From assembly GCA_034440375.1 (NCBI GenBank), contig JAWXBZ010000105.1, forward strand, positions 2,269 to 66,268: DNA of 64,000 nucleotides, read 5' to 3'. Below, in pieces: positions 30,801-43,410 of this stretch (the stretch's first letter is position 1; the number at the start of each line of letters is the position of its first letter). A model generated the notes under the pieces. It worked only from the letters and a program-made list of their open reading frames with translations, was not told where the DNA came from and ran no database searches. Made by a program: the position numbers and the translations under genes. This DNA is from Candidatus Eiseniibacteriota bacterium. Its GTDB lineage: Bacteria > Eisenbacteria > RBG-16-71-46 > JABDJR01 > JAWXBZ01.

Positions 30801-31237
30801 CACTGGACGATTTCATCGGACAGCAGATCCTGGTCCGTTTCCGGGTTCAGACAGATCCGCTGGCGGAGCTGGACGGCTGGTATCTCGACAATGTCCGGGT
30901 CAACGAGGGTGATTGCACGCTGGCCGCCGTCGGGCCGGCGGCCGGTGCCGCGGGCCTCACCGGTTTGATGGCACCGTATCCCAATCCAATGACCGGCACC
31001 GCCCGGTTCGCGTTCCAACTGGCCACACCGGTGACAAACGTCTCGATGTCGGTTTATGACATCTCGGGTCGCCTCGTCCGCCGTGAGTCACTCGGCCATC
31101 TCGATACCGGCACGCACGCCTGGCTCTGGGACGGTCGCGGCGATTCCGGAAGCGAGACAGCCAACGGTGTCTACTTTGCCCGGCTCGAAGCCGCCGGCAA
31201 ATCGTTCACGCAGAAGGTTCTTAAAGTCACGCGGTAG
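27854..31237 (+). CDS. Large secreted multidomain protein: HExxH zincin-like segment, lamin-tail domain, pre-peptidase C-terminal domain and a C-terminal T9SS type-A/FlgD-Ig-like domain
   Basis: N-terminal TM/signal anchor. VILHETGHWFDD is an HExxH motif. HLVISEIDLGAQDAVEVFNPSDAAIDMTGWQIQV is a lamin-tail domain. DADLIRFDAVAGMRYGFEV...GTYYLKVRH is a PPC-like domain. C-terminal tail VSMSVYDISGRLVRR...NGVYFARL. Confidence 0.6.
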   Translation: MRLLDRLRHGKGCPNKSFAYLIALIILITLVATLVLTSFVTSAEAAFTASGRFLYADKLWDKDGYTGQEQNLPIRHARVEIVDVPSLQVIGSGVADADGNYSITVTPLAPIVPVNVVARVLTDGRTAGYEIRIVDELTRGLGEPAVIGNIHAVLNDPVLNHNQAQPLNFGTFLLEDPDGTGVAQAFNIFDCAVDYFDWMAQPGLLNRLPNATEYVIFAWSPTSSNEGSNYSGHAILLASPGQGNDTDAWSDTVILHETGHWFDDFFSRSDNPGGPHGIGDNNANVLLAYGEGVATFHCAKVRKLRATTRLNLIAQPIDSHVSIYGDLMIPPDSMMAGGLSFSYDFETGVVFQPGLPPGGFFIGQRGSANETNVTSAQWDLVDDAGTPDETPGVDDDQVGVNDAIPFAIERIWLPGLPAGNAVTIEDYYQGWYAQNGANFMRAGVDDIFFNLSLMEFYPDSYEPDGTAAQATSIAPLAYSVTTGAHLVISEIDLGAQDAVEVFNPSDAAIDMTGWQIQVYVNGDAAPVVSRIYTFPAFTLDPGEAVALLERGDPLNNGAHHLYGGSTVPNSWNASWNYGLDGAVVLRDASSQAVDFVSWRHGNGTPNSTPVPSGTAFTGLLDSPPAASNLARDINGTDTDAAADFTPEDGTLASANGTFSRHQTLFDLGDADLIRFDAVAGMRYGFEVRAFFSASDPFVELLSPTGAILGSNDNSDPGIRDARIDLFAGTTGTYYLKVRHVGPHTDWAAYNVAAFQRPPSTTLLAPGGITATAQNVNNINDPVHLDWLNGAPYDSVRLYRNGALLQTLPGSSTSYDDLADRGVYTYEVSGVGGLSETARASTNEYAGVIGCFVSEDFEQGNANDWISPPNTWGVTALAEGGVFGYTDSPVGTSRGCAGVLESCTTSTPTVLRVPVRLPPNSHLMFDQICITEHCAPTPCDLGIVEISTDEGTSWTEIARYDQASDPAWTDNVADPTDWRPADLSLDDFIGQQILVRFRVQTDPLAELDGWYLDNVRVNEGDCTLAAVGPAAGAAGLTGLMAPYPNPMTGTARFAFQLATPVTNVSMSVYDISGRLVRRESLGHLDTGTHAWLWDGRGDSGSETANGVYFARLEAAGKSFTQKVLKVTR

Positions 31238-31288
31238 GTTTCACCTCGCGACGTCGGGGGTCTGACGGTCACGGCTCTGGCCGGCAGG

Positions 31289-31309
31289 CCCCCGGCTCGC
31301 GGGGGTTTA
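31289..31309. terminator. GC hairpin (CCCCCG-GCTCG-CGGGGG) followed by TTTA, lying between convergent genes
   Basis: Read from the sequence. The hairpin has a 6-bp stem and the T tract is weak. Confidence 0.3.
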
Positions 31310-31924
31310 TCGAGATGGCGAAACTGGGTGGAAAACAAGGATGTCGGCGGCATCCCTGAGCAGGTCAATCCGTTGGACCTCGACCCGAAGCGCCGCCATT
31401 CCCGTTTTCAAATGGATGTCGGCCAGAAGCTTTGCCTCGTTGCCCGGCTGCAGCAATTCGAGATGGTCATAGATCATCGGCGTCGACTGCAGCGAGTCCT
31501 TCCAGGGGCGCAACTCGATGGCAGCCACCATCCCGACAACGACTCCGTTAACGACGAGTATCTCCATCATGCTGACACTACCGTTGGCAACCCCGTTAAG
31601 AAGGCCGAGTCCAATGACGATGAACAGGTAGGTGAGATCTCGAATGCGGATCTGTTCCGTGCGATATCGCAGGATGCCGAACACGCCGAACAGCGCCAGC
31701 GCAAAACCGAGCTCGGTCGGCACCTTGCGTAGCAGAAGACACAGGAAGAGCGTCACCACGTTGAACAGGTAGTAGGTGAATACGTACTCACGATTTCGGT
31801 ACAGGCGGTAGTAGATCAGGCGAATCACGACGCTCGCGAACGCAAGATCAAGCACAAACCGCACCAGCAACTTGCTCATTTCGGACCAATCCGCGAAAAT
31901 ATCACCACCAGGAATCGTGTTCAT
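31307..31924 (-). CDS. DUF4956-domain membrane protein
   Basis: Multi-TM protein (YVFTYYLFNVVTLFLCLLL, LGFALALFGVFGILRYRTE) with a C-terminal soluble region. It overlaps the VTC gene stop by 4 bp. Confidence 0.55.
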   Translation of the reverse strand: MNTIPGGDIFADWSEMSKLLVRFVLDLAFASVVIRLIYYRLYRNREYVFTYYLFNVVTLFLCLLLRKVPTELGFALALFGVFGILRYRTEQIRIRDLTYLFIVIGLGLLNGVANGSVSMMEILVVNGVVVGMVAAIELRPWKDSLQSTPMIYDHLELLQPGNEAKLLADIHLKTGMAALRVEVQRIDLLRDAADILVFHPVSPSR

Positions 31925-32733
31925 TCCGCTCGTCCTTCCAGTGCCCGGAGGCCGGGCAACAATGCGTTCAGGCGCACACCGGGATGGGTCAAGGCAATCC
32001 CGGTGCAGTACTTGCTCGTCCAGCCTGGCCGGCAACCGGACTCCCTCAGCGCCGACATGACCGGGGTTCCACGTCCGTATGGCCACTGCTTCACCTCAAC
32101 GATGACGATGCCGGACAGCGATGCGTGGCGCTGCCCCATTTCCATTCGTACATCGAAATCAAGGGTCACGCGCTCGCAAGTCTCAAGGCCCAGGAGTGTC
32201 AGCCGCCGAAAGTGAGTCCAGACCTGAGGGAGAACACCCCGGTCAATCCCGGTGTGGATGGCCACGAAGTCCTGGTCATCAGCGCTCAACTCGTTGCCGC
32301 CAAACGGATGCTCGCGGGAGAGCTTGGTCGTTTTCAATTTGCTCCGCCGTGTCTTGACTTCGAGCATCGTCAGGCTGCGATCCGGGTAGTGCCGAACGCG
32401 TGCCTTGTGCCGCACCCGGCGGCCGCGCCGATGCGCGTGGAAGAAATCGAGCTCCGGGGTGTCGAAGTACAGCGTCTGGTAAGTCGCGACGAGCTCGGTA
32501 CCGGCGGTCAGCACGGCGTAATCCCCCGTGATCGCGCGGACGAGGTCGGCCGCTGACGCCGGAGACAGGACAAACTTGGTGTCCGTCCGTCGCCGCAGCT
32601 CACGCCGGGCAATGAGTTCCGGCGTCGCCACCGGAAAACAGCTGAGCAGGGCCTGCCACTCCCCGCCTGCCATCGAAGCAGCCTTAGTATCTGACCTGGG
32701 TCCAGGCATAGAACTTGTCATCCTGTCGCGCAC
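31921..32733 (-). CDS. VTC-domain (CYTH-like, polyphosphate-polymerase-type) protein
   Basis: YFDTPELDFFHAHRRGRRVRHKARVRHY...LEVKTR...VIVEVK matches the bacterial VTC/CYTH tunnel-fold domain. The start is uncertain; the ATG at 32733 or an internal start are both possible. Confidence 0.6.
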   Translation of the reverse strand: MRDRMTSSMPGPRSDTKAASMAGGEWQALLSCFPVATPELIARRELRRRTDTKFVLSPASAADLVRAITGDYAVLTAGTELVATYQTLYFDTPELDFFHAHRRGRRVRHKARVRHYPDRSLTMLEVKTRRSKLKTTKLSREHPFGGNELSADDQDFVAIHTGIDRGVLPQVWTHFRRLTLLGLETCERVTLDFDVRMEMGQRHASLSGIVIVEVKQWPYGRGTPVMSALRESGCRPGWTSKYCTGIALTHPGVRLNALLPGLRALEGRAE

Positions 32734-33820
32734 CGTCCCTCAACTCGCGAAGCTCGTAGTTCAGCATCAGGCGCCATGGTTTCTTCGGAAGCCCGTAATA
32801 GGCGCCGAGAGTCCAGCGCTTGAAGTCATCATCAAGCGTGTCGTATCGAACGATGGGGCCGACCTGGGCCTCCGTCTTGCCGACCAGGTTCACGTAGTAA
32901 CCCGACGGATCGTTCATCTCGCCGGTCTCCACGATCTCGTCCGAGCCACGCACGTATTCGGCGCTGATGAAGAATCGCGGGTGGTCGAGTTCCACGTCGA
33001 CACCAAGTCGTTTGAACTTGATCTGCATTTTCTCCTCCCCCAGCAGAAGATCGGCCGGCTCAATGAAATCACCGGAAGCCCCGGAGACTCCGAACCTTGC
33101 CGTCAGGTTTTCCGGGTCGGATTTCCATCGAAGCCCGACGCGCCCCCACAGGCTCATGCGCGCCGTATTGTCCTCCTGCACATTCAATCCGGCGCCGTTG
33201 ACGATGGTGATGGTATCCTCAAAACGGAACCCTTTCGGCCCGAGTTTGACGTTGCCCATCAGGCCGATCCCAATATCCCGCAGATTGACACCGCGCGACA
33301 GGGCGTCGGACAGCTCCGTTCGATTCACCGCGTACAGATTGGTGGATGACTCCGTGTTTTCGTATCCGAACTGCGTTTTCTGCTGGCCGACCCGAATGTC
33401 GTGTCGGGGAATCACTTTGAAATCGACGTACGCATCCCGGAGTATTCCCGTGACTTCCGGAGCTCGTGGATCGATCTCGATGTTGTAGGAGAGCCACTCG
33501 GAAATGTCGCCCTTGACGCCGATACGGACCCTTTGAACACGATAATTGTCGTTGTCGACTAAGGGGTCGTCGCCGGTCATCAATGAATACTTGTAGTGAA
33601 TCTGCATGAACCCGAAAACTTCCGGAGGCTTCAACCCCCGTCGTTTCGATGACCTGGGCTGGTCCGCCGCGCCGGAAATCTTCGGGTCGACGCGGGTGGA
33701 ATCGACTGCGCCGACGGAACTGTCCATCTGCGCATGACCGACTCCGCACCACAACACGATCACGCTGGCCGCGATGGTCGCCGTCCTTCGCATTGGATTG
33801 ATCGAACGCGTCAAGGACAT
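32684..33820 (-). CDS. Phosphate-selective porin O/P family outer-membrane protein
   Basis: Signal peptide MSLTRSINPMRRTATIAASVIVLWCGVGHAQ, a beta-barrel pattern with a C-terminal aromatic residue (...YAWTQVRY), and similarity to the OprO/OprP family. Confidence 0.6.
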   Translation of the reverse strand: MSLTRSINPMRRTATIAASVIVLWCGVGHAQMDSSVGAVDSTRVDPKISGAADQPRSSKRRGLKPPEVFGFMQIHYKYSLMTGDDPLVDNDNYRVQRVRIGVKGDISEWLSYNIEIDPRAPEVTGILRDAYVDFKVIPRHDIRVGQQKTQFGYENTESSTNLYAVNRTELSDALSRGVNLRDIGIGLMGNVKLGPKGFRFEDTITIVNGAGLNVQEDNTARMSLWGRVGLRWKSDPENLTARFGVSGASGDFIEPADLLLGEEKMQIKFKRLGVDVELDHPRFFISAEYVRGSDEIVETGEMNDPSGYYVNLVGKTEAQVGPIVRYDTLDDDFKRWTLGAYYGLPKKPWRLMLNYELRELRDGARQDDKFYAWTQVRY

Positions 33821-34034
33821 GAAGCGCACCTCCGGAAAAGGACGACTGCCAGGCCATGTGTCACCGAACGACACCCCCGGAGGCTCGCAATCAATCTGCG
33901 GCCCGGCCGAAAAATCAACGCGAGCATGTGTCAGGGGCAAGAAAGGAACACACCGCCGCCCGGTTTGTGACATGGATGATTCCGCGGGTGAACCGGGGCC
34001 CCTGGTGCCGGAAGGGTGATACATTTGCCAGTCC

Positions 34035-34622
34035 ATGGTCACACGAACCCAACGGGGCCGGGAGGCCCGAGTCGAGCCCCCCTATCTCCGGGACGCCGAG
34101 CTTTTGAAAGCCTGCCGACTGGGAGATGACGCCGCGTGGCGTGAACTGATGCGTCGCTACCGCGATCTCATCTATTCGATCCCGAGGCGGTACGGGCTCG
34201 ATGCGGACGACACGGCCGATGTCTTTCAGATTGTCATTGCCGCCCTCTGGAAGGGTCTGGCCGAGCTCCGTTCGGAGAAGGCGCTGACGCGATGGATCCA
34301 GGTGACCACCCGGCGCCAGAGTCAGCGCCAGGCGGAAAAGATTCGGCGGCATGCCTCCGTGGACGTACTGGCTCGACAGCCGGACCCGGATTTGCTCGTG
34401 TCCGAGAGGCTCCATGCGGCCGAATCGGCCCACCGCGTCCGGCGGGAGCTGGATCGGCTTGGGAGTCGTTGTCGGGAGATCCTGACCCTCCTGTACATGG
34501 AAGAGCCTCCCATGGGATATGACGAGGTTGCGCGGCGCATGGGATTGCCCCGCGGTTCGATCGGCCCAACGCGGGGCCGTTGCCTGGACAAGCTTCGGGC
34601 ACTCATGGGAAAAGACTTGTGA
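34035..34622 (+). CDS. RNA polymerase ECF-type sigma-70 factor
   Basis: Region 2 (RELMRRYRDLIYSIPRRYGLDADDTADVFQ) and region 4 (ILTLLYMEEPPMGYDEVARRMGLPRGSIGPTRGRCLDKLR). Confidence 0.8.
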   Translation: MVTRTQRGREARVEPPYLRDAELLKACRLGDDAAWRELMRRYRDLIYSIPRRYGLDADDTADVFQIVIAALWKGLAELRSEKALTRWIQVTTRRQSQRQAEKIRRHASVDVLARQPDPDLLVSERLHAAESAHRVRRELDRLGSRCREILTLLYMEEPPMGYDEVARRMGLPRGSIGPTRGRCLDKLRALMGKDL

Positions 34623-34677
34623 GGAAGTATCCGATCGGGGGCCGGCGGTACCTTCCGGCTGGTAATGGGAGGAGACC

Positions 34678-35313
34678 ATGTCCGTGAAAAGGATTGACGT
34701 CGGCGCAAAGACCGGGCACCCGGAAACGGGTGAGCTGCTGGATCAGCTTGAAGGACGGCTGGCTTTGGACCGACTCCGGGAAGTTGCGACGCACGTGCTG
34801 GCCTGCCGACGCTGCCAAAGGTCGATTGAGGAGCTGAAGCGCGTAACCAACTCGCTCGGCGCATCGACACTGGAGTCGCCCCCGGAGTGGCTGGCGAACT
34901 GGGCGGACGATCGGCCGCGGGATCAGCCGAAAAAGGTTCCGAAGGGTCTGATGCCAATCCTGAGGCTGGTCCTCGATTCATGGCGTCTCGAACCGCTGGG
35001 GGCTCGCGGGGTCGCCCCTTCCAGCCGCCGTCTCCTCTATCGGGCCGGCTCGGTCGATCTGGATATTGAACTAGACCTGGGACGCGCGGGCCGGACGGCC
35101 ACGGTTCGGGGCCAGATTCTTGATGCCACCGTGACCGGTGGGCGACAGTTCTCGGAAGGGCACGTTCGGTTACTCGCCGGCCGGCGGCTCGTGGTCAAGG
35201 TGCCGCTCGGCACCCGGGGAGACTTCCGGCTGAGCGACGTGCCCCGCCGCGTCTACCACCTGAATATCGCGGCGGCCGGATTCCGGGTTCGAGTCGATTC
35301 ATTCGAGATATGA
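34678..35313 (+). CDS. Putative zinc-binding (ZAS-type) anti-sigma factor, soluble
   Basis: H-x3-C-x2-C motif (HVLACRRCQ) near the N-terminus, immediately downstream of the ECF sigma gene. No evident TM helix. The stop overlaps the next gene's start (ATGA). Confidence 0.55.
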   Translation: MSVKRIDVGAKTGHPETGELLDQLEGRLALDRLREVATHVLACRRCQRSIEELKRVTNSLGASTLESPPEWLANWADDRPRDQPKKVPKGLMPILRLVLDSWRLEPLGARGVAPSSRRLLYRAGSVDLDIELDLGRAGRTATVRGQILDATVTGGRQFSEGHVRLLAGRRLVVKVPLGTRGDFRLSDVPRRVYHLNIAAAGFRVRVDSFEI

Positions 35314-38111
35314 CCCTGTCCGTTCGCGTCGGCGCGCTGGAGCGCGACCTCTTGAACAGCCGGGGTGATGCCATCCGACCGGCCCATTTCAAAAAATACC
35401 TGGCCTCGCTCCAGCGGACCACGCGTCGCGATCCATTGAAAGCTGAGTCCGCATCGAGCCGGGCCATGCTGGTTGCCCGGGCCGTGGGCGATGGCGTCGC
35501 GCTGGCGCATCTGCAGCGGGCACGGGCCCACGCGCGTCGCGCGAGTAACCGATGGCCGGAGGCGGCCTCGGACTATCGCGCGGCTCTCAAGCGATTTCAG
35601 GATCTGGATCGGGCGGACGAATGCGCGTTCACCCGTATCGGCCTGATTGATGCCCTCATGTACCTCGGGCGCTACGAGGATGCCCTGTTTGAGGCGCACG
35701 CGGCGCGACGAACGGTCCAAAGGCTTGGCGATCCGATTCGCGGCGCCCGCATCGAAAACAACATCGGAAACATTCACCATCGGCGCGATGACCTCGAAAC
35801 GGCCATCCAATGGTATGACCGCGCGCGGCGGACATTTCGGCGGCGGCACGACGACTCCGCGCTGGCATTGGTTGAGTTCAACCGCGGAAACGTGCTCGGG
35901 CCGATGGGGCGCACCGCCGAGGCGCGGATCGCCTACGAAACCGCCGGGGCCATTTTTTCCCGGCAGGGCTTCACGGACCGGACGGCCCAGGTGCGGTACA
36001 ACCTGGCCTACCTTCGCTTTCTCGAAAACCGGTTGCCGGAGGCTCTCGAGGAGTTGGAGCAGGTCCGCGTGACCTTTCAGGCGACGGGCGATGAACGTCA
36101 CCTCGGCCTGACGCGACTCGATGAGTCTGAGATCCTTCTCCGCCTGAATCTTTGGGATGACGCCGGAGAAGCGGCTACCGAAGCCATCCGCCGGCTGAAG
36201 GCACTCGGTCTCGACTACGAGCGGGCGAAAGCCCTCACGTTCCTGGCCCTGGCCACGGCCCGTCGAGGCGATCCGTCGGAGGCGGCGGGCCTGCTGGACT
36301 CGGCCCGCGAACTTTTCAAGACGGAAAAAAACCGCTGGTGGGTCGGTGAGACCAGCCTTCAGCTGGCCCGATTGGCTGTCGGTCGAGGTGCCTGGTCAGA
36401 GGCACGGCTGGAAGCGCAGCGGGCACGCCGGACGTTCGCCCGAAGAATATCCAACGAAGCGCTGGGGCGGGCCCTGCTGATCGAAGCGGAGGCGGCCCGC
36501 GGAGCCGGCCGCAGGGCCCAAGCCGGGCGCACGCTGGAGGCGGCGCTTCAGGCCGCCCGGCGGAGTCGCTCGCCCTGGCTCACGGCGGAAGTTCGCGAGT
36601 TGGCGGGACTCCTGGCACTTGACCGGGGCGATGCTGCGACGGCACGGCGCCACTTCAACCAGGCCATCAAGGCCATTGAACAGCTTCGTGCATTGCTCTC
36701 CGGTGACGACCTCCGGGCGGGGTTTCTGCGCGAGCGGGATCGCCCCTATCTGGAATTGGCCCGTCTCGAACTCGTGGCCGGCCGGCCGCGACAGGCGTTC
36801 GAACTATTCGAACGCGGGCGGGCGCGGGCCCTGCTCGACCTCCTGACGGACATGCCGGCGGGAAAGCGGGCACCAGGCAAGGGTCGCAGGAAATTGGAGA
36901 CACGAGCCAGGCACCTGCTGTCGGAATTGGGGCGCCGTTATCACGAAGACGACGTCGCCGAATCGTCCGGCCAACGACAGTGGACCAGCGCCGGAATATC
37001 CGAAGCGCGGGAATCGCTCGAGGCGGAAGCGGCCCGGCTTCTGCGTCGCGTGGATCAAAGCCCTGGTTCGATCGCCGGGCGGCGTCCCGGTCTCGGCGAG
37101 GTGCAACGTCTCCTTCGTCCCGGCGAAACCCTTCTTTCTTTCCACGAAATCGGCGGCCGGGTCGGGGTATTTCGGATTACCCGGACCCGCTTCGACTCGG
37201 TGCCGGACCTGGCCGGCGCGGCCGACATCGAGAGGCTGGCGGAATCGCTGCGATTTCAGTGGGGGCGGTTCCGCTTCGATGCGGAATTACTGGCACGCCA
37301 CGGCGCTCAGTTGGAAAGCATGGCCCGGAGCGATCTTCGGCGCCTTCATGAGCTCTTGATCTCACCCTTTGATTCTCCCTCGGAGAAGGGGCCGCTGATC
37401 ATCGTTCCGACGGCTGGACTTCGCTCGGTCCCTTTTTCCGCACTCGACGACGGAACGGCGTGTCTGGCCCGGAGGCGGGCCATCGTCGTGTCGCCCAGTG
37501 CGGCGGTCTGGAGCCGTTGCCGGACCCACGAGACGGGCGATGGGGGCCTTGAGAGGGCCGTGCTCATTGGTATCCCCGACAAGCGGGCTCCGCAGGTTGC
37601 CGACGAAATACGGGAGTTGGCCGGGCGGCTACCGGGTGCCCGGGTATTCCTCGGTTCGGAGGCAACGGCGCACCAATTTCTGGCATCCCTGCCGAAGGCC
37701 TCGATCTTGCATGTAGCCACGCATGGCATGTTCCGTACCGATCGCCCGAACCTGTCGGGAGTCCGACTGTCCGATCGATGGGTCTACGGCTATGAAGTTG
37801 CCCGGGGAATGATGCGGGCCCGCCTGGTCGTGCTATCGGCCTGCGTGACCGGGCTTTCCGCCGCCTGGGCCGGCGGCGATTGGATGGGCCTGGCCCGATC
37901 CTTTCTGACCGCGGGAGCCCGCCGGGTTCTGGTAGGCCTCTGGGATGTCGATGACGATGCCACCCGGCAATTGATGGGACATTTTTACCGCTTTCTGATC
38001 AACGAAGGGCATCTGCCGGCGGAAGCGCTGGCCCGGGCCCAGGCCGAAATGGCGTCCAGCGGCTGGCACCCGTACTACTGGTCCGGCTTTTCGCTCATGG
38101 GAGATCTGTGA
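35310..38111 (+). CDS. TPR-repeat CHAT-domain protein (caspase-like His/Cys peptidase)
   Basis: About 600 aa of TPR-like repeats followed by a CHAT domain (LIIVPTAGLRSVPFSAL...ASILHVATHGMFR...ARLVVLSACVTGL...WSGF) with a His/Cys dyad. Confidence 0.75.
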   Translation: MTLSVRVGALERDLLNSRGDAIRPAHFKKYLASLQRTTRRDPLKAESASSRAMLVARAVGDGVALAHLQRARAHARRASNRWPEAASDYRAALKRFQDLDRADECAFTRIGLIDALMYLGRYEDALFEAHAARRTVQRLGDPIRGARIENNIGNIHHRRDDLETAIQWYDRARRTFRRRHDDSALALVEFNRGNVLGPMGRTAEARIAYETAGAIFSRQGFTDRTAQVRYNLAYLRFLENRLPEALEELEQVRVTFQATGDERHLGLTRLDESEILLRLNLWDDAGEAATEAIRRLKALGLDYERAKALTFLALATARRGDPSEAAGLLDSARELFKTEKNRWWVGETSLQLARLAVGRGAWSEARLEAQRARRTFARRISNEALGRALLIEAEAARGAGRRAQAGRTLEAALQAARRSRSPWLTAEVRELAGLLALDRGDAATARRHFNQAIKAIEQLRALLSGDDLRAGFLRERDRPYLELARLELVAGRPRQAFELFERGRARALLDLLTDMPAGKRAPGKGRRKLETRARHLLSELGRRYHEDDVAESSGQRQWTSAGISEARESLEAEAARLLRRVDQSPGSIAGRRPGLGEVQRLLRPGETLLSFHEIGGRVGVFRITRTRFDSVPDLAGAADIERLAESLRFQWGRFRFDAELLARHGAQLESMARSDLRRLHELLISPFDSPSEKGPLIIVPTAGLRSVPFSALDDGTACLARRRAIVVSPSAAVWSRCRTHETGDGGLERAVLIGIPDKRAPQVADEIRELAGRLPGARVFLGSEATAHQFLASLPKASILHVATHGMFRTDRPNLSGVRLSDRWVYGYEVARGMMRARLVVLSACVTGLSAAWAGGDWMGLARSFLTAGARRVLVGLWDVDDDATRQLMGHFYRFLINEGHLPAEALARAQAEMASSGWHPYYWSGFSLMGDL

Positions 38112-38204
38112 TGCGCCGTGACGATTGGGCTGGCCACCGGCCGGGGGGGGCCTGTACTCTTTGATTCCCGCCAAGGACTCATGCCGCCGAAAGGGAATTC
38201 TGTC

Positions 38205-39548
38205 ATGACATTCTCATTTCCCACCGCGCGGGCCGCGCTTTCGCTTGGCATCGGTCTGGCCCTGGCACTCCCGGGCTGCGGCCAGGACACTCTCGAGGAA
38301 TCGCCCCGGGTTGACAGTTACGCCGCCAGAACCGGCGGCCTCCTGACCGACGACTTCGACAGTGACGAAATCCTGGCGATCGTGGACCCAAATTTCGACC
38401 CCGGCACCATCGCCATCGAACACGGGCTGCTGCTGGTCGATGAACTGCCGGACGGACTCTCGACACGCTTTCGAGTGCCAGCCGGGGGCGTCCTGGCGCA
38501 GGAGGAAGCCGAACTGGCGCTCGATCCGCGCGTTCTCGGCGTCGACAGGAACCTCTTCGTCATCGACACCGAGACGCGACAATCGAGCATGGCCTTCGAC
38601 GAGGGCAATTTTGTGGAAGGCGCCGTCGGTGACCAGGGCTTTCTGCGCCTGCTCCACGTGGCCCGGGCGCACGATCGCACCCGGGGCGATGGGGTGGTCG
38701 TTGCCATTCTTGATACGGGAATAGACTTCAGCCATCCGGCCCTGGCCGGGCACATTCATCCGGCGAGTCGTGACTTCCTCGACGGCGACACCGACGCCTC
38801 CGAATCCCCCAACGGCATTGATGACGATGGCGATGGATTCATCGACGAGGCCCTGGGTCATGGCACGCATGTGGCCGGACTCGTCCGCCTGGTGGCCCCG
38901 GAAGCCAAAATCATGGTCCTTCGGGTCCTGGACGCCGATGGGCGGGGCCCGGCCTGGGGCGTAGCGCAGGCAATCGAATATGCCGCTGATCAGGGCGCGT
39001 CGATCATCAACATGAGCCTCGGCATGTTGAGCAAACCCGAGATCATGGATGAGGCTCTCAGCTACGCGGCCGACCGGGGTGTGATCATGGTCGGCTCGAT
39101 CGGCAACTGGGGGGCGGAGGATCCGGAGGAGTACCCTTCGTCCAGCAGCTCGGTCTGGGCTGTCGTCGCCACGGATCACGAGGATCGGGCCGCCACGTTC
39201 ACGAGCTATTCCAGCCACGCCGCGATCGCCGCCCCGGGAACCCTGATCCGCAGCGCCCACTATGGCGGCGGCTCGGCCGTCTGGAGCGGCACGTCGATGG
39301 CCTCACCGCTGGTGGCGGGCACTGCGGCGCTTCTCCTCTCCATTCACGCCGATTGGACGCCCGCCATGGTCCTGGCGCGTATCCAGTCCACCGCCCGGCC
39401 GGTTACTCCCCTGCATTCGGAACAGATTGGCGAACTGGGCGCCGGCCGGATCGACGTGGGAGCAGCCCTCGCGGCCGATCAGCACGACGGCACCGCAAAC
39501 GACGATGGCGAGGGCGAGGTGTACTGGAATCGTCGAACCCGGCGCTGA
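38205..39548 (+). CDS. S8-family serine peptidase lipoprotein
   Basis: Lipobox LALALPGCGQ; VVVAILDTGID (Asp), HGTHVAGLV (His), GTSMASPLVAGTAALL (Ser). It lies 7-90 bp downstream of the CHAT gene, depending on which start is used. Confidence 0.8.
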   Translation: MTFSFPTARAALSLGIGLALALPGCGQDTLEESPRVDSYAARTGGLLTDDFDSDEILAIVDPNFDPGTIAIEHGLLLVDELPDGLSTRFRVPAGGVLAQEEAELALDPRVLGVDRNLFVIDTETRQSSMAFDEGNFVEGAVGDQGFLRLLHVARAHDRTRGDGVVVAILDTGIDFSHPALAGHIHPASRDFLDGDTDASESPNGIDDDGDGFIDEALGHGTHVAGLVRLVAPEAKIMVLRVLDADGRGPAWGVAQAIEYAADQGASIINMSLGMLSKPEIMDEALSYAADRGVIMVGSIGNWGAEDPEEYPSSSSSVWAVVATDHEDRAATFTSYSSHAAIAAPGTLIRSAHYGGGSAVWSGTSMASPLVAGTAALLLSIHADWTPAMVLARIQSTARPVTPLHSEQIGELGAGRIDVGAALAADQHDGTANDDGEGEVYWNRRTRR

Positions 39549-39591
39549 GCCAGGGCGGGGGCTGACACCCCGCTGACCCCAATTTAGCAGG

Positions 39592-39620
39592 AGCCCGCTC
39601 CGGAGCGGGCTTTTTCTTGC
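39592..39620 (+). terminator. Rho-independent terminator
   Basis: AGCCCGCT-CCGG-AGCGGGCT hairpin followed by TTTTTCTT, directly after the subtilase stop. Confidence 0.7.
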
Positions 39621-39707
39621 CCGATTGTGTATCCCGTGTCCACCGGACCGTACCTTGCCTCCATGCATCGCAATGAGGCGTATCCGTTCCGGAACGGTGA
39701 CCGAAAA

Positions 39708-40919
39708 ATGGCACGGCGAATTGCCGCCTACTCGCACGATACCGTCGGACTCGGGCACCTGCGCCGCACCCTGACCATCACCCGCCATCTCGGGGCACGG
39801 CGCCCCGACTTGAACTCGCTCATCATCTCCGGTTCCCCATTCGTCCAGGCGATGGGTTCCTATGATCGAATCGATTTCCTCAAACTCCCCGCGGCGAAGA
39901 AAATTCGGAACGGGCACTACGAAGCCCGGTACCTCGGCCTCGACTTTGATCACTTCAACCGGTTTCGATCAGGCGTCATCGACGAGGGGCTCCGGGCTTT
40001 CGAGCCCGATCTCCTGATCATTGACAAGACGCCGGGGGGGATGAACGGCGAATTGCTTCCCTGTTTGCGGCGCCTTCGGGAGACCGGCGCGCGGACGCGG
40101 GTGGTCCTTGGTCTGCGCGATATCCTGGACGAGGCGCCGAACCAGCGTGCCGAGTGGACGGCCACCGGCGACTGGCAGACGCTCGACGAACTCTATGATG
40201 CGATCTGGATCTACGGCTCGGCGGACGTTTTCAACCCGGTTACCGAGTACGGCTTCAGCGATACCATGGCCGCGCGCACGTCTTTTCTGGGCTACCTCCC
40301 AAAGTACAACGGAATTCGGCCCGTCGAGGCCATCCGGGCTGAACTTGACGCAAAGGATCAGCCGCTCCTGGTCTTGAGCCCCGGCGGCGGCGAGGACGGT
40401 TACGAACTTCTGTCACTCTTTCTCGAAGCGAGGGACGGGGGCTTCCTTCCGACCGGACACCTGCCGGTCCTGGTCACCGGACCAGGCATGCCGGAAGCGC
40501 GCGTGGCCGAACTCCGGCATCGCCTCGGCGCCAACGGCCGATTGCTGGAGTTCAGCGATCATTTCACGTCAATTCTGGCGGCCGCCGACCTGGTGATCAC
40601 CATGGGTGGCTACAACACGCTCACCGAAGCGCTCTGCCTTGGCAAGCGGGTGGTCTCGGTTCCCCGCGTGCGCCCGAGGCGCGAGCAGTGGATACGGGCA
40701 CAGCGATTCGCCGAGCGCGGGCTGCTGACAATGGTCGAGCCGGACGGTGCCTCCCCGGCCACACTCGGCGCCGCGATCCGTCATGAACTCGGCCGCGACG
40801 TGAGCACCGGATGCCTCCCGCTCGATTTCGGGGGCCTGGAACGGCTGGACGACGAATATGCCCGCCTCTTCGACAATGAGATGCCGGCCCTTCAAAGCGA
40901 GTCCGGAGCAACGCGATGA
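39708..40919 (+). CDS. GT-B glycosyltransferase, GT28/MGDG-synthase-like (Glyco_tran_28_C-type)
   Basis: N-terminus RIAAYSHDTVGLGHLRRTLTI and C-terminal ADLVITMGGYNTLTEALCLGKRVVSVPR motif. The ATG at 39708 is preferred over the one at 39627. Confidence 0.55.
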   Translation: MARRIAAYSHDTVGLGHLRRTLTITRHLGARRPDLNSLIISGSPFVQAMGSYDRIDFLKLPAAKKIRNGHYEARYLGLDFDHFNRFRSGVIDEGLRAFEPDLLIIDKTPGGMNGELLPCLRRLRETGARTRVVLGLRDILDEAPNQRAEWTATGDWQTLDELYDAIWIYGSADVFNPVTEYGFSDTMAARTSFLGYLPKYNGIRPVEAIRAELDAKDQPLLVLSPGGGEDGYELLSLFLEARDGGFLPTGHLPVLVTGPGMPEARVAELRHRLGANGRLLEFSDHFTSILAAADLVITMGGYNTLTEALCLGKRVVSVPRVRPRREQWIRAQRFAERGLLTMVEPDGASPATLGAAIRHELGRDVSTGCLPLDFGGLERLDDEYARLFDNEMPALQSESGATR

Positions 40920-42244
40920 CGACGCCCGCGACAACACACGCTCCGCTTTGCGTGGCCTACCTCGTCAAGACCTGGCCGCGCCTCTCGGAGACATTTGTCC
41001 TGAACGAGATTCTGGCGCTGGAGGCGCGCGGCGCCATCGTCACGATCCTGGCCCTGAAGCGCCCGGCGGAGCGTCGCTTCCACGAGAAACTGGCGCGTGT
41101 GCGCGGGGACGTGTTGTACGCGCCGGAGGTACGGCCGAATCAAGTCCTTTCCTTCCTCGCATCGCAGCACAAACACCTGGCCGGGGCGGAAGTGCTTCTA
41201 TCGCGGCACTTCTGGACGTCCCTGGATCAGGCGGACGATGAGGGCCTGGAGTCGCTGATTCCCGCGATCGCATTTCTGCCGGTGGTTGTCGAACGGCAAA
41301 TCGACCACCTTCATGCCCATTTCGCCACCTCGGCCGCCGCCACGGCCATGCGGCTGGCATCGCTCGCCGGAATCGGTTGGTCAATGACGGCCCACGCCAA
41401 GGATATTTTCCACCAATCGGTTTCAAGTGACCGCCTGCGCGAGAAGGTGGCGTCGTCACGCTTCACCGTGGCCGTGAGCGACTGGAGCGCCGACTTCCTG
41501 CGCGACGTCGTCGGTCACCCGGCCGCATCAAACGTGCGGCGGCTGTACAACGGTCTCGATCTGACTGAATTTCCGACGCCGCGGTTCGGGGGGGCCGGCA
41601 CGGAAACAGCGGCCTGCCTGCCGGAACTCCCGGTCACTCCGGGGCGGATTCTTTCCGTGGGTCGCCTCGTGCCGAAGAAAGGCTTCGGCACTCTGCTTCT
41701 GGCGGCGCGTCGACTCATCGATCAAGGCCACGACATTCACGTCGACCTCGTTGGTGACGGCGAACTGCGCGTCGAACTGGAGCGTCGCATCCACGAGCTC
41801 AACCTCGACGCGAGAGTCCACCTGCTTGGCGCGCAGTCCCACGATGCCGTCCGGCAGCTCATGCAATCGTCGACGCTGTTCGCGCTCCCGGCCGAAGTGG
41901 CGGAGGACGGCAATCGTGATGGATTACCCGTCGTGGTCGTGGAGGCCATGGCATCGGGACTTCCGGTCCTCTCAACGCCAGTGGTCGGCATCCCCGAGGC
42001 GGTCCTCGATGGGATCACCGGCCGCCTTGTCCCGGAAAGGGATCCGATCGCCTTGGCCGGCGCAATAGCCGAACTCCTCGCCGATCGCGCGGGTGCCGCG
42101 CGGCTGGCGGAGGCCGGCCGGCGACGCGTGGACGAGCACTTCGACGGCGCGCGTTCGGCGGCCACGCTTCACGAGTGGTTCCAGGGGGCCGTACGACTGG
42201 AGGCGGCGAAACCGAAATCGATGATGGAGGCGGTCGGTCGATGA
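40916..42244 (+). CDS. Glycosyltransferase family 4
   Basis: GRLVPKKGFGTLLLA...EDGNRDGLPVVVVEAMASGLPVLST (GT4 E-x7-E region). The start overlaps the preceding gene's stop. Confidence 0.7.
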   Translation: MTTPATTHAPLCVAYLVKTWPRLSETFVLNEILALEARGAIVTILALKRPAERRFHEKLARVRGDVLYAPEVRPNQVLSFLASQHKHLAGAEVLLSRHFWTSLDQADDEGLESLIPAIAFLPVVVERQIDHLHAHFATSAAATAMRLASLAGIGWSMTAHAKDIFHQSVSSDRLREKVASSRFTVAVSDWSADFLRDVVGHPAASNVRRLYNGLDLTEFPTPRFGGAGTETAACLPELPVTPGRILSVGRLVPKKGFGTLLLAARRLIDQGHDIHVDLVGDGELRVELERRIHELNLDARVHLLGAQSHDAVRQLMQSSTLFALPAEVAEDGNRDGLPVVVVEAMASGLPVLSTPVVGIPEAVLDGITGRLVPERDPIALAGAIAELLADRAGAARLAEAGRRRVDEHFDGARSAATLHEWFQGAVRLEAAKPKSMMEAVGR

Positions 42245-43410
42245 ACTGGCTCGTCCTCGCAAACGACTTCGGCGTCCCATGGCACGGCACCAAGGGGGCC
42301 TCGATTCACCTCCGATCGATGGCCGAAGCCCTGGCCACCGGCGTCGACTCCGTCGAGGTGGCGGTGCGGCGCCTCGGCCGGCCGACCGCCGGAAATCCTG
42401 GCCATGGGCGAGTCATTCTGACCGGGCTCGCAACCACGGAACCGCCGACCAATCCGGCGTTCGATCCCGATCGGATGAACGCGGAATTGCTTGCGTGGAT
42501 CCTGGAGCGGCATCGCCACTCTCCGTTCGATGCCATCTACGAGCGCTATGCCCTTTGGACGGTGGCGGGACTCGATGCCGCCCGAAAGCTCGGCATTCCC
42601 CATCTACTTGAAGTCAACGCGCCGCTGGTGGACGAGGCCTCCCGCTGGCGGAACCTGGAACTCACGGTGACCGCCCGGGCGGCGGAACATCGCCTGGCCA
42701 TGGACGGTGATCATCTTCTGGCGGTGTCGTCACCGATCGCACGACATCTGCTCCGACTTGGCGCCAATCCCGACCGAATTCATGTTGAAGGCAACGGCGT
42801 GGCAGATGCGTTCCTCCGCGTGGAACGGCGCCACGAAGCCGGTACCTCTCCTTTCGTGGTGGGATTCGCCGGCAGTTTGAAACCATGGCACGGACTGTCG
42901 ACGCTGGTTTCGGCATTCGATCGACTCGGCGGCGCCGCCTCGGGTTGGCGGCTCCGCATCGTCGGCGAGGGTCCCATGGCAGAATGGCTGCGCGCGGCTG
43001 CAGAGACGCGTGAGGGGGTCGTCCTCACCGGCCCAATGCCGCACGAGTCGATTCCCGGCGAACTGGCCCGAATGGATGCCGGCGCCGCGCTCTACGAAGA
43101 GGTCGGCGAGGGGTACTTCTCGCCGCTCAAGGTGGCCGAGTACCAGGCGGCAGGGCTCCCCGTGGTGGCCTCGGGCGGCGCCGGGGTCCGTGAGATGATC
43201 ACGCATGGCAACGACGGCCTCCTGGTCCAGGAAGGCGATGTGGCCGGGGCCGCCACGGCCTTCGAACGGATTCGCTTCGAATCAAACCTTTCGGCCACGC
43301 TCGCGGCGGCCGGCCGATGCCGCGCGGCGGCCCGCACCTGGTCTGCCATCGCCGCACGTTGTCGCACACTGGCCTCGGGTCAGTCGCCCTGCGCAGAGAT
43401 CGGTCGATGA
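42241..43410 (+). CDS. Glycosyltransferase family 4
   Basis: FVVGFAGSLKPWHGL...SPLKVAEYQAAGLPVVAS motifs; ATGA overlap with the preceding gene. Confidence 0.65.
   Translation: MNWLVLANDFGVPWHGTKGASIHLRSMAEALATGVDSVEVAVRRLGRPTAGNPGHGRVILTGLATTEPPTNPAFDPDRMNAELLAWILERHRHSPFDAIYERYALWTVAGLDAARKLGIPHLLEVNAPLVDEASRWRNLELTVTARAAEHRLAMDGDHLLAVSSPIARHLLRLGANPDRIHVEGNGVADAFLRVERRHEAGTSPFVVGFAGSLKPWHGLSTLVSAFDRLGGAASGWRLRIVGEGPMAEWLRAAAETREGVVLTGPMPHESIPGELARMDAGAALYEEVGEGYFSPLKVAEYQAAGLPVVASGGAGVREMITHGNDGLLVQEGDVAGAATAFERIRFESNLSATLAAAGRCRAAARTWSAIAARCRTLASGQSPCAEIGR

What the first reader, a model, noticed from the sequence alone, without database searches (positions are those of the whole stretch)
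34035..39548. Operon of ECF sigma factor, ZAS anti-sigma factor, TPR-CHAT caspase-like protease and S8 subtilase
Four co-directional genes are tightly linked, with ATGA coupling between the anti-sigma and CHAT genes. The S8 gene follows the CHAT gene by 7 bp from the ORF start, or 94 bp from my preferred lipoprotein start, and the operon ends at a clean terminator. The anti-sigma factor carries a ZAS (H-x3-C-x2-C) motif but no transmembrane helix. This suggests it is not released by the usual RIP membrane proteases and could instead be controlled by the adjacent cytoplasmic CHAT peptidase. CHAT/TPR proteins and subtilases also recur together in bacterial conflict and programmed-cell-death modules, for example the protease partners of bacterial gasdermins, but no gasdermin-like effector is present here. 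The operon is therefore either a proteolysis-gated sigma-factor switch or a protease-cascade system with an unidentified target.
Basis: partly seen in the sequence, partly recalled or inferred. Interest (0 to 1): 0.8.

Follow-up and report, generated by a model that had tools for sequence, protein, structure and literature searches.

The report
Sigma factor, anti-sigma, caspase-like protease, subtilase cassette
This is a real four-gene cassette, inherited as a unit in at least nine bacterial phyla, in which a caspase-like protease probably controls a transcription switch that turns on a secreted protease; the gene association was already published (ECF54 group), but nobody has shown how it works.

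Summary
All four genes, the ATGA overlap, the HxxxCxxC motif, the lack of a TM helix and the terminator are present as described.

The window comes from a Candidatus Eisenbacteria MAG. The quartet is not incidental:
- 51 of 80 loci recovered through the CHAT protein carry all four genes on one strand.
- These loci span Eisenbacteria, Acidobacteriota, Planctomycetota, Chloroflexota, Zixibacteria, TA06, Ignavibacteria and Actinobacteria.
- Gene order is sometimes permuted.
- The genes' divergences track each other (r = 0.74-0.80).

The 211-aa protein is a soluble two-domain class I anti-sigma factor. It has a ChrR/RslA-like zinc-type domain plus a CarboxypepD_reg-like beta-sandwich. The 933-aa protein is a cytoplasmic separase/Csx29/DdvA-type TPR-CHAT with an intact His-Cys dyad. 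The S8 enzyme has an intact triad and is exported.

Best reading (inferred, about 0.45): TPR-CHAT inactivates the anti-sigma factor and frees the ECF sigma, and the exported subtilase is the output.

The sigma + "carboxypeptidase-domain" + CHAT + subtilase neighbourhood is already recorded as the signature of ECF group ECF54. Craspase/Csx30/CASP-sigma and DdvA/DdvS are mechanistic precedents. The new points are the cryptic anti-sigma domain, the breadth across phyla, and an invariant Arg motif. I score interest as moderate.

The parts
34035..34622 (+). ECF (group IV) sigma-70 factor, 195 aa
   Evidence: Matches Sigma70_r2 and Sigma70_r4, and TIGR02937 at 6e-22. Homologues lie next to the CHAT gene in 57 of 62 loci. 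They score 1e-26 to 1e-71 against this protein, while an unrelated ECF sigma in L040 scores 1e-5.
34627..34653 (-). Bipartite DNA motif AGGTA-N17-GATAC, read on the minus strand, in the sigma/anti-sigma intergenic region. It is a candidate promoter or operator of unresolved orientation.
   Evidence: The same motif with the same spacing lies at the sigma stop in 21 of 68 loci, all of Eisenbacteria type and including L001, L002, L081 and L082. Background is 0.033 hits per kb.
34678..35313 (+). Soluble two-domain anti-sigma factor, 211 aa. It comprises an N-terminal class I anti-sigma domain with H14/H39/C43/C46, helix 4, a disordered linker (79-87), the invariant D100...R110 segment, and a C-terminal CarboxypepD_reg-like beta-sandwich (105-210).
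   Evidence: The family profile A3 hits RslA 3hug_B (1.2e-5), ChrR 2q1z_B (8.5e-5), RsiW (2.5e-4) and DdvA 8rlz_A (5.9e-4). Among 27 family members, zf-HC2 hits 8 and CarboxypepD_reg hits 10. The AF2 model has pLDDT 71.6 and its top Foldseek hit is ChrR. There is no TM helix. A GGGAGGAG ribosome-binding site lies 5 nt before the ATG.
35310..38111 (+). Cytoplasmic TPR-CHAT caspase-like cysteine protease, 933 aa. It has about 24 TPR-type helices (24-583) and a CHAT domain (about 607-931) with catalytic H805 and C845.
   Evidence: CHAT PF12770 at 2.6e-53. H805 is kept in 75/76 homologues and C845 in 76/76. The AF2 model has pLDDT 89 and pTM 0.86. Its best PDB matches are separase (5e-17), Csx29 (2e-16) and DdvA (1e-15). 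No signal peptide or TM helix.
38205..39548 (+). Exported (lipoprotein-type) subtilase S8 with an N-terminal propeptide-like region. The longest ORF starts at the GTG at 38118.
   Evidence: Peptidase_S8 at 1.7e-46. It is thermitase/subtilisin-like at 1e-35 and carries DTG, HGTH and GTSMASP. The signal peptide and LALPGC lipobox are in the sequence. Nearly all of 70 homologues have a signal peptide or lipobox.
39587..39620 (+). Intrinsic terminator closing the operon
   Evidence: A hairpin followed by a U-run, with dG -20 kcal/mol and z = -3.1; 0 of 200 shuffles fold as well.

Best explanation
This is a self-contained four-gene signalling cassette that is inherited as a unit.

Shown:
- The ECF sigma factor is encoded next to a soluble class I (zinc-type) anti-sigma factor. 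That protein carries a C-terminal beta-sandwich domain.
- The next gene is translationally coupled to it. It encodes a cytoplasmic separase/Craspase-type TPR-CHAT protease with an intact His-Cys dyad.
- The last gene encodes an exported subtilase.

Inferred:
- In the resting state the anti-sigma domain sequesters the sigma factor.
- An unknown cytoplasmic signal, probably a protein, is read by the long TPR array and activates the CHAT domain.
- CHAT then cleaves the anti-sigma factor. The likely site is in or next to the segment between the sigma-binding domain and the beta-sandwich, where D100 and R110 are invariant.
- The remaining fragment is degraded and the sigma factor is freed.
- The sigma factor drives the operon, so the exported subtilase is the output rather than a regulator.
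For: Cassette conservation:
- 79 genome loci were found through the CHAT family.
- 44 of 57 loci with both flanks pass strict quartet criteria, and 51 of 80 hold all four genes at E<1e-20 on one strand.
- The close relatives L001 and L081-L083, Caldilinea L085 and Microlunatus L084 all carry the genes.
- Gene order is permuted in some lineages but the components are kept: sigma-CHAT-anti-S8 in Acidobacteria and S8-sigma-X-CHAT in Microlunatus.
- Pairwise divergences correlate: sigma-CHAT 0.80, sigma-S8 0.77, CHAT-S8 0.74.

Anti-sigma identity:
- Profile hits to solved anti-sigma domains and a ChrR-like fold.

Compartments:
- CHAT and the anti-sigma factor lack signal peptides and TM helices.
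- S8 has an export signal in nearly all homologues.
- S8 is duplicated or triplicated in some loci, which fits a payload.

CHAT competence:
- H805 is kept in 75/76 homologues and C845 in 76/76.
- The fold matches separase, Csx29 and DdvA.

Candidate site:
- R110 is kept in 72/72 and D100 in 68/72 members of an otherwise fast-evolving protein.

Precedent:
- The TPR-CHAT protein Csx29 cleaves Csx30 and relieves inhibition of the ECF-like CASP-sigma (PMC10028731).
- DdvA is an anti-sigma factor fused to a TPR-CHAT domain (PMC11506125).
Against: - No cleavage, binding or expression data exist for any member of this family.
- In the AF2 model R110 sits in the first beta-strand of the sandwich at pLDDT about 58-68. 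It may therefore be structural rather than a scissile site.
- Three relatives have a 168-169 aa middle protein that lacks the sigma-binding domain but keeps the rest: L081 and L082 (49% identical CHAT) and Microlunatus L084. The universally conserved function of this protein is therefore not sigma binding as such.
- The ECF literature proposes that the proteases act on the sigma factor itself (PMC8999054).
- No sigma-type promoter could be assigned upstream of the window's sigma gene.
- No complex prediction could be run.
Confidence: 0.45

Rival explanations
1. The proteases act on the sigma factor itself. CHAT (and/or S8) keeps the system off by degrading the ECF sigma, as proposed for ECF54. 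The middle protein would then be an adaptor or substrate-presenting factor rather than a true anti-sigma factor.
For: - The review PMC8999054 (section 3.3) states this hypothesis for ECF54 on the basis of the same gene neighbourhood.
- Short forms of the middle protein that lack the anti-sigma domain exist in L081, L082 and Microlunatus L084.
- The part of that protein conserved everywhere is the C-terminal region.
Against: - 70 of 71 middle proteins from genome loci align over the anti-sigma domain.
- The family profile hits four solved anti-sigma domains.
- A positive, anti-sigma-cleaving logic has direct precedent for TPR-CHAT (PMC10028731).
- S8 is exported and cannot reach a cytoplasmic sigma factor.
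Confidence: 0.15
2. This is a thiol/zinc redox switch. The ZAS anti-sigma factor senses oxidative or electrophile stress itself, as RsrA and ChrR do. CHAT and S8 would simply be members of the regulon, for example for protein turnover.
For: - The H14/H39/C43/C46 pattern has ChrR-like spacing.
- The profile and the fold are both similar to ChrR.
- The protein is soluble and has two domains, like ChrR.
Against: - The zinc ligands are absent in 0/18 planctomycetal and 0/3 actinobacterial members and in about 8 of 18 Eisenbacteria members. All of these keep the full cassette.
- The tight coupling of CHAT to the anti-sigma gene (ATGA overlap), its near-universal co-occurrence and its preserved dyad argue for a regulatory role rather than a cargo role.
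Confidence: 0.15
3. This is a conflict or abortive-infection protease cascade. Invader-activated CHAT would activate the subtilase, or another effector, which then destroys cellular targets. This would resemble the protease partners of bacterial gasdermins or the SAVED-CHAT/PCaspase cascade.
For: - CHAT proteases do take part in defence cascades (bioRxiv 10.1101/2023.06.23.546230; PMC10028731).
- The cassette sits in different genomic contexts, like a mobile module.
- There are weak PADLOC hits to a generic 'subtilase' model (3e-19) and to BovA (5e-4).
Against: - S8 carries an export signal in almost all homologues, so it is outside the cytoplasm.
- There is no gasdermin, CRISPR array or Cas7-11-sized ORF in the window.
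- No defence-system match was found.
- The flanks are porin/VTC and glycosyltransferase genes.
- The only other family that recurs in the flanks is an Opp-type peptide ABC transporter, in Acidobacteria.
Confidence: 0.07
4. The four genes are adjacent by chance and are functionally unrelated.
For: None found.
Against: - Linkage is conserved across at least nine phyla, with permuted gene order and correlated divergence.
- The cassette recurs in unrelated flanking contexts.
Confidence: 0.01

Closest known systems
ECF54 group of ECF sigma factors (Huang et al. 2015, J Bacteriol 197:2517; summarised in PMC8999054 and PMC7826278). The planctomycetal group ECF58 is its neighbour in the ECF tree.
   Same: - The conserved neighbourhood is the same: an ECF sigma with a 'carboxypeptidase(-regulatory-like)' domain protein, a CHAT protein and a subtilase.
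- Proteolytic control has been proposed for the group.
- Actinobacterial (L051, L074, L075, L084) and planctomycetal loci belong to the same cassette family as the window.
   Different: - The window is from Candidatus Eisenbacteria, not Actinobacteria.
- The literature says these groups have no anti-sigma factor. Here the 'carboxypeptidase-domain' protein has an N-terminal class I/ZAS anti-sigma domain.
- Membership of the window's sigma factor in the ECF54 clade could not be tested, because no ECF Hub models were available.
- Huang 2015 could not be read, so the description rests on the review.
Type III-E CRISPR Craspase: Csx29 (TPR-CHAT) - Csx30 - CASP-sigma (PMC10028731)
   Same: - A cytoplasmic TPR-CHAT protease of the same fold (Foldseek 2e-16 to 8eey_B).
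- It is encoded with an ECF-type sigma factor and a soluble sigma inhibitor.
- Cleavage of the inhibitor relieves inhibition.
   Different: - There is no Cas7-11 or crRNA and no CRISPR array here, so the activating signal cannot be target RNA.
- The TPR part is much longer here (about 580 aa).
- The inhibitor here is a canonical class I anti-sigma domain plus a beta-sandwich, unrelated to Csx30.
- An exported subtilase is part of the unit.
DdvA-DdvS of Myxococcus xanthus (PMC11506125)
   Same: - A zinc-type class I anti-sigma domain (the profile hits 8rlz_A at 5.9e-4).
- It is functionally tied to a separase-like TPR-CHAT module (Foldseek 1e-15 to 8rw5) and an ECF sigma factor.
   Different: - In DdvA the two modules are fused in one transmembrane protein and the TPR-CHAT part is periplasmic.
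- DdvA is followed by RseP-type intramembrane proteolysis.
- Here they are two separate cytoplasmic proteins without a TM helix.
- The DdvS regulon is a CBASS/CRISPR island. Here the linked output is a subtilase.
ChrR-sigmaE (Rhodobacter sphaeroides) type soluble two-domain ZAS anti-sigma factors
   Same: - A soluble protein with an N-terminal HxxxCxxC anti-sigma domain and a C-terminal beta-rich domain.
- It is the best fold and sequence match among solved structures.
   Different: - The C-terminal domain is a CarboxypepD_reg/NOMO-like sandwich, not a cupin.
- A dedicated protease gene is coupled to it.
- The zinc ligands are dispensable in whole phyla.
CalpL-CalpT-CalpS (type III-B CRISPR; described in bioRxiv 10.1101/2023.06.23.546230)
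   Same: The logic is the same: a signal-activated cytoplasmic protease cleaves a soluble anti-sigma-like protein bound to an ECF-like sigma factor.
   Different: - The protease there is a Lon-SAVED protein activated by cyclic oligoadenylate.
- There is no homology to the proteins here.

Membership tests
ECF (group IV) sigma-70 factors | Has sigma2 and sigma4 domains only and matches ECF family models | tested here: met
   Matches Sigma70_r2 (2.3e-7), Sigma70_r4 (4.5e-6) and TIGR02937 (6.2e-22, 78 bits against a cutoff of 42.9). The protein is 195 aa.
ECF54 group | The sigma sequence falls in the ECF54 clade or matches the ECF Hub group HMM | not testable with these tools
   No ECF Hub models or reference ECF54 sequences were available. 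Huang 2015 (PMC4518836) is not held.
ECF54 group | Conserved neighbourhood of a carboxypeptidase-regulatory-like domain protein, a CHAT protein and a subtilase | tested here: met
   CarboxypepD_reg matches the window protein weakly (0.006) and 10 of 27 family members. CHAT and Peptidase_S8 are present. The description is taken from PMC8999054.
ECF54 group | No recognisable anti-sigma factor; actinobacterial distribution | tested here: not met
   An anti-sigma domain is present here. The organism is Candidatus Eisenbacteria. Actinobacterial relatives lack the zinc motif, or in Microlunatus the whole domain.
Class I anti-sigma factors (ASD), ZAS subgroup | H-x3-C-x2-C plus an upstream His or Cys ligand in an N-terminal helical bundle | tested here: met
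   H14, H39, C43 and C46 are present. The AF2 model has helices at 17-24, 30-42 and 44-60. Across the family, H39 is kept in 53/72, C43 in 50/72 and C46 in 51/72.
Class I anti-sigma factors (ASD), ZAS subgroup | Sequence or fold homology to solved anti-sigma domains | tested here: met
   Profile A3 hits RslA (1.2e-5), ChrR (8.5e-5), RsiW (2.5e-4) and DdvA (5.9e-4). The top Foldseek hit is ChrR 2q1z_B at 7.8e-4.
Class I anti-sigma factors (ASD), ZAS subgroup | Binds and inhibits the cognate sigma factor; binds zinc | not testable with these tools
   This needs a complex prediction or biochemistry. The structure tool takes single chains only.
CHAT / clan CD caspase-like peptidases (separase-Craspase type TPR-CHAT) | CHAT domain with a conserved catalytic His-Cys dyad | tested here: met
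   PF12770 at 2.6e-53. H805 is kept in 75/76 homologues and C845 in 76/76. Both are invariant in A1.
CHAT / clan CD caspase-like peptidases (separase-Craspase type TPR-CHAT) | A helical-repeat (TPR) array followed by a caspase-like alpha/beta fold | tested here: met
   The AF2 model has pLDDT 89. Foldseek gives separase 4.7e-17, Csx29 2.3e-16 and DdvA 9.5e-16.
CHAT / clan CD caspase-like peptidases (separase-Craspase type TPR-CHAT) | Proteolytic activity and substrate | not testable with these tools
   Biochemistry is required.
Type III-E Craspase system | Association with Cas7-11/gRAMP, a CRISPR array, and Csx30/Csx31 | tested here: not met
   There is no tandem or CRISPR-like array, and no ORF above 1135 aa in the 64-kb window. 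No Cas-like family recurs in the flanks of the homologous loci surveyed.
DdvA-type anti-sigma factors | A single polypeptide with a cytoplasmic ASD, a TM helix and a periplasmic TPR-CHAT | tested here: not met
   These are two separate ORFs. Neither has a TM helix or signal peptide (maximum KD19 of 0.73 and 1.42).
Subtilases (peptidase S8) | Asp-His-Ser triad in the subtilisin fold | tested here: met
   PF00082 at 1.7e-46. The alignment to AK.1 protease/thermitase (1e-35) covers the DTG and GTSMASP motifs, and HGTH is visible in the sequence.
Bacterial gasdermin-protease systems | An adjacent gasdermin-like pore-forming effector cleaved by the protease | tested here: not met
   There is no such ORF in the operon. 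The neighbours are Porin_O_P, VTC, DUF4956 and glycosyltransferases. PADLOC gives no system hit.

The most novel reading that the evidence does not exclude
A widespread, CRISPR-independent 'bacterial separase/caspase to sigma factor' pathway. A stand-alone cytoplasmic TPR-CHAT protease would sense an intracellular protein signal and cleave a soluble class I anti-sigma factor at or near an invariant Arg (the FDS-x6-AGxR motif). This would release an ECF sigma factor that switches on an exported subtilase.

If true, ECF54 and ECF58 would be unified as one cassette family with a previously overlooked anti-sigma factor; both are currently described as lacking any regulator. Craspase-like sigma control would also predate, or exist independently of, CRISPR.
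Probability: 0.35. Interest if true: 0.65.

Novelty: new member of a known kind. Interest (0 to 1): 0.5.

Why it matters
ECF sigma factors are the largest class of alternative sigma factors. Several groups, including ECF54 and ECF58, still have no known regulator.

This locus and its roughly 80 relatives point to a concrete answer that can be tested:
- The neighbouring "carboxypeptidase-domain" protein is a cryptic soluble anti-sigma factor.
- The adjacent separase-like TPR-CHAT protease is its likely inactivator.

If confirmed, this would be a cytoplasmic, caspase-type route to sigma activation. It would be independent of membrane proteolysis and of CRISPR, and present in many poorly studied phyla. 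It would also provide a natural protease-to-transcription switch that could be engineered.

If CHAT does not cleave the anti-sigma factor, the cassette is still an unexplained and very well conserved association of three proteolysis-related proteins with a sigma factor.

Tried and rejected
1. An ECF-type GGAAC...CGT promoter upstream of the sigma gene. One GGAAC-N17-GTGAC string lies at about 33946, but it has no counterpart in the close relatives L001 and L002, so I dropped it.

2. De novo bipartite motif search over 67 sigma upstream regions.
- It found AGGTG-N17-GATAC upstream of sigma in only one Eisenbacteria subclade.
- The window has only the GATACAT half at the right place.
- The antisense copy at the sigma/anti-sigma junction is conserved in the window, but I could not decide its orientation or function.

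3. Searches that fell short.
- The search for related loci with the 30-sequence CHAT alignment failed because no conserved stretch was found. An 11-sequence alignment worked.
- Word-indexed searches with the anti-sigma protein or its profile returned only 3 and 7 proteins. The exhaustive profile search was needed to see the family.

A 7-sequence alignment gave only a moderate model with pLDDT 71.6.

5. Complex prediction (anti-sigma with sigma, or anti-sigma with CHAT) is not possible with the tools.

6. PADLOC gave no defence-system assignment. Rfam gave no hit in the window.

7. Huang 2015, Jogler 2012 and Wiegand 2020 could not be read. The supplement of Casas-Pastor 2021 is not held.

8. 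A Streptomyces lividans paper that appeared to mention CHAT was a false match to an author name.

Full report
**1. What is in the sequence**

- a 195-aa ECF sigma factor (Sigma70_r2/r4; TIGR02937 at 6e-22);
- a 211-aa protein with H39-x3-C43-x2-C46;
- a 933-aa TPR-CHAT protein (PF12770 at 2.6e-53);
- a subtilase (PF00082 at 1.7e-46).

The junction details also hold.
- The anti-sigma stop and the CHAT start overlap as ATGA.
- The longest S8 ORF starts 7 nt after the CHAT stop.
- The ATG at 38205 is the better S8 start. It has an AAGGGAA upstream and gives a signal peptide ending in the lipobox LALPGC.
- A hairpin plus U-run follows the S8 stop, with dG -20 kcal/mol and z = -3.1.

The CHAT protein is 100% identical to one annotated from a Candidatus Eisenbacteria MAG. 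There is no paralogous module elsewhere in the window.

**2. The adjacency is not incidental**

A scan of 185,579 species-representative genomes with an alignment of the CHAT family returned 79 loci. I searched their six-frame ORFs with the window proteins, and for the anti-sigma factor with an iterated profile.
- The sigma gene lies upstream in 57 of 62 loci that have enough upstream DNA.
- An S8 gene lies downstream in 59 of 67 loci that have enough downstream DNA.
- A strict quartet is present in 44 of 57 loci with both flanks. Several of the misses are ORF-calling artefacts.
- 51 of 80 loci hold all four genes at E<1e-20 on one strand.

The loci come from Eisenbacteria, Acidobacteriota, Planctomycetota, Chloroflexota, Zixibacteria, TA06, Ignavibacteria, Actinobacteria and one Verrucomicrobia-labelled contig.

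Further points support a functional unit.
- Metagenomic relatives at 41-60% identity (L001, L081-L083), Caldilinea (L085) and the cultured actinobacterium Microlunatus panaciterrae (L084) also carry the genes.
- Gene order is permuted while the content is kept. Several Acidobacteria have sigma-CHAT-anti-S8, and Microlunatus has S8-sigma-X-CHAT with overlapping genes.
- Flanking genes differ between lineages.
- Pairwise divergences of sigma, CHAT and S8 correlate at r = 0.74-0.80.
- S8 is duplicated or triplicated in some loci (L002, L023, L052, L054).

**3. The 211-aa protein**

Pfam gives the window protein only a weak CarboxypepD_reg match.

A 27-member family alignment (A3) has an N-terminal half that matches solved class I anti-sigma domains:
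- RslA 3hug_B at 1.2e-5;
- ChrR 2q1z_B at 8.5e-5;
- RsiW at 2.5e-4;
- DdvA 8rlz_A at 5.9e-4.

Its C-terminal half matches NOMO/CarboxypepD_reg-type beta-sandwiches. Among the 27 members, zf-HC2 hits 8 and CarboxypepD_reg hits 10.

The AF2 model has pLDDT 71.6 and these elements:
- a three-helix bundle (17-60) with the ligands at the helix 2/3 junction;
- a fourth helix (70-78);
- a disordered basic/proline linker (79-87);
- a helix (89-101);
- a nine-strand sandwich (105-210).

Its top Foldseek hit in the PDB is ChrR. There is no hydrophobic segment: the maximum KD19 is 0.73 in the window protein and the family median is 1.04.

The zinc ligands are kept in Acidobacteria, Chloroflexota and about half of the Eisenbacteria. 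They are absent from all 18 planctomycetal and 3 actinobacterial members, although the domain still aligns.

Two positions are essentially invariant in this otherwise fast-evolving protein. D100 is kept in 68/72 members and R110 in 72/72, within the motif FDS-x6-AG(V)R at the entry to the sandwich.

An exhaustive profile search of 1.84 billion representatives shows roughly 100 full-length proteins of about 200-230 aa among the best 150 hits. The family is therefore large.

**4. The proteases**

The CHAT dyad is conserved. H805 is kept in 75/76 homologues and C845 in 76/76, and E766, H801 and W878 are invariant.

The AF2 model has pLDDT 89 and pTM 0.86. It shows about 24 TPR-type helices followed by the caspase-like domain. 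The best PDB matches are human separase (4.7e-17), Csx29 of Craspase (2.3e-16) and DdvA (9.5e-16). Neither the window protein nor 29 homologues have a signal peptide or TM helix.

The S8 enzyme is thermitase/subtilisin-like and has the DTG, HGTH and GTSMASP motifs. Of 70 homologues, almost all have an N-terminal signal peptide. Eisenbacteria relatives have lipoboxes such as SSC, AGC or GGC. Acidobacteria and Planctomycetota have signal-peptidase-I type signals.

So sigma, anti-sigma and CHAT are cytoplasmic, and the subtilase is exported. S8 can therefore neither cleave the anti-sigma factor nor be a cytoplasmic executioner. It is best read as the output.

**5. Mechanism**

The best-supported model has four steps.
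- The anti-sigma domain sequesters the sigma factor.
- A cytoplasmic signal read by the TPR array activates CHAT.
- CHAT cleaves the anti-sigma factor.
- The sigma factor is freed and drives the operon, including the exported subtilase.

The shown parts are domain identities, compartments, conservation of the catalytic residues, co-inheritance and translational coupling. The inferred parts are sigma binding, cleavage, the cleavage site and the regulon.

Three points count against the model.
- R110 may be structural, because it lies in a beta-strand at pLDDT about 60.
- Three relatives have a 168-169 aa middle protein without the anti-sigma domain (L081, L082, L084).
- I could not assign a sigma-dependent promoter upstream of the window's sigma gene.

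The rivals are as follows.
- Degradation of the sigma factor itself, which is the literature's proposal for ECF54.
- A ZAS redox switch with CHAT and S8 as cargo. This is weakened by the loss of the zinc ligands in whole phyla.
- A defence-type protease cascade. This is weakened by S8 export, by the absence of PADLOC system hits, by the absence of a CRISPR array or gasdermin, and by housekeeping-type flanks.

**6. What is already known**

[quoted passage not shown] 2015, which I could not read.

Casas-Pastor et al. 2021 (PMC7826278) place actinobacterial ECF54 next to planctomycetal ECF58 in the ECF tree. [quoted passage not shown]

In my survey, actinobacterial and planctomycetal loci carry the same cassette as the window. 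Their middle proteins have anti-sigma domains without the zinc motif, which may explain why they were missed. Whether these sigma factors are formally ECF54 and ECF58 could not be tested.

There are mechanistic precedents.
- Csx29 (TPR-CHAT) cleaves Csx30 and relieves inhibition of the ECF-like CASP-sigma (PMC10028731).
- CalpL cleaves CalpT, which is bound to CalpS.
- DdvA is a transmembrane ZAS anti-sigma factor fused to a periplasmic TPR-CHAT, and its authors call it the only characterised one (PMC11506125).

I found no paper in the held library that characterises the stand-alone cytoplasmic cassette.

**7. Verdict**

The association itself is published, so the locus is a new member, in a new phylum, of a known but experimentally uncharacterised kind.

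The added value here consists of:
- the evidence that the "carboxypeptidase-domain" protein is a soluble class I anti-sigma factor;
- the compartment argument that makes S8 the output;
- the breadth and co-inheritance of the cassette;
- the invariant D/R motif as a candidate cleavage or recognition site.

I score interest at 0.5.

Noticed in passing
window 34627-34653 (minus strand); also L001, L002, L081, L082 and 16 other loci: A bipartite motif AGGT[G/A]-N17-GATAC with fixed spacing lies on the antisense strand at the sigma/anti-sigma junction in 21 of 68 loci, all of Eisenbacteria type. Background is 0.033 hits per kb. It could be an antisense promoter over the sigma gene. Read on the plus strand (GTATC-N17-TACCT), it could instead be a promoter or operator for anti-sigma-CHAT-S8.
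   Followed up: partly
L023, L031, L035, L039, L060, L069, L071, L072, L078, L079, L080 (upstream of sigma); window 34018-34025: The same motif in sense orientation (CCAGAGGTG-N16-CTGATACAT) lies 14-140 nt upstream of the sigma start in one Eisenbacteria subclade. It is a likely autoregulated promoter. The window keeps only the TGATACAT half, 10 nt before the ATG and with no ribosome-binding site, which hints at a near-leaderless sigma mRNA.
   Followed up: partly
L081:912-1418, L082:3290-3796, L084:4484-4993: In two close relatives (49% identical CHAT) and in Microlunatus panaciterrae, the middle protein is only 168-169 aa and lacks the whole N-terminal anti-sigma domain. It keeps helix 4, the conserved Arg segment and the beta-sandwich. 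The universally conserved part of this protein is therefore not the sigma-binding domain.
   Followed up: partly
window 34975-35007 (anti-sigma residues 100-110); alignment A3: D100 (68/72) and R110 (72/72) are essentially invariant in the motif FDS-x6-AG(V)R, although the protein averages only about 27% identity across the family. This may be a cleavage or recognition site for CHAT, or a structural salt bridge.
   Followed up: partly
L084:2239-7586 (Microlunatus panaciterrae); L008, L011, L013, L016, L017, L050 (Acidobacteria): Gene order is permuted. Microlunatus has S8-sigma-X-CHAT with overlapping genes, and its S8 has no obvious signal peptide. Several Acidobacteria have sigma-CHAT-anti-S8. 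L008 also has a second CHAT+S8 pair in tandem.
   Followed up: partly
L002, L023, L052, L054, L056: The subtilase gene is present in two or three tandem copies downstream of CHAT in several loci. This fits a payload or output gene.
   Followed up: no
L003, L012, L045, L064 and about 10 other mostly Acidobacteria loci, 0.6-5 kb upstream of sigma: An Opp/Dpp-type peptide ABC transporter lies upstream of the cassette, with an ATPase, two permeases and a substrate-binding protein of about 600 aa. This may link the exported protease to peptide uptake, or it may only reflect shared ancestry of these loci.
   Followed up: no
window 39627-46025; L081:5992-10317; L082:8329-11539: The gene cluster downstream of the terminator is syntenic with the clusters that follow S8 in L081 and L082. 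It comprises a GT28-like gene, two GT4 glycosyltransferases and a 902-aa double APH-type kinase-like protein.
   Followed up: no
window 27854-34042: The upstream neighbours are a 1127-aa T9SS-sorted protein (LTD, InhA-like MAM, Por_Secre_tail) and a divergent cluster of DUF4956, a VTC-domain protein and a phosphate-selective porin. The longest reading of the porin ORF (start 34042) overlaps the sigma start. Its real start is probably the internal Met before the signal peptide (MSLTRSINPMRRTATIAASVIV...).
   Followed up: no
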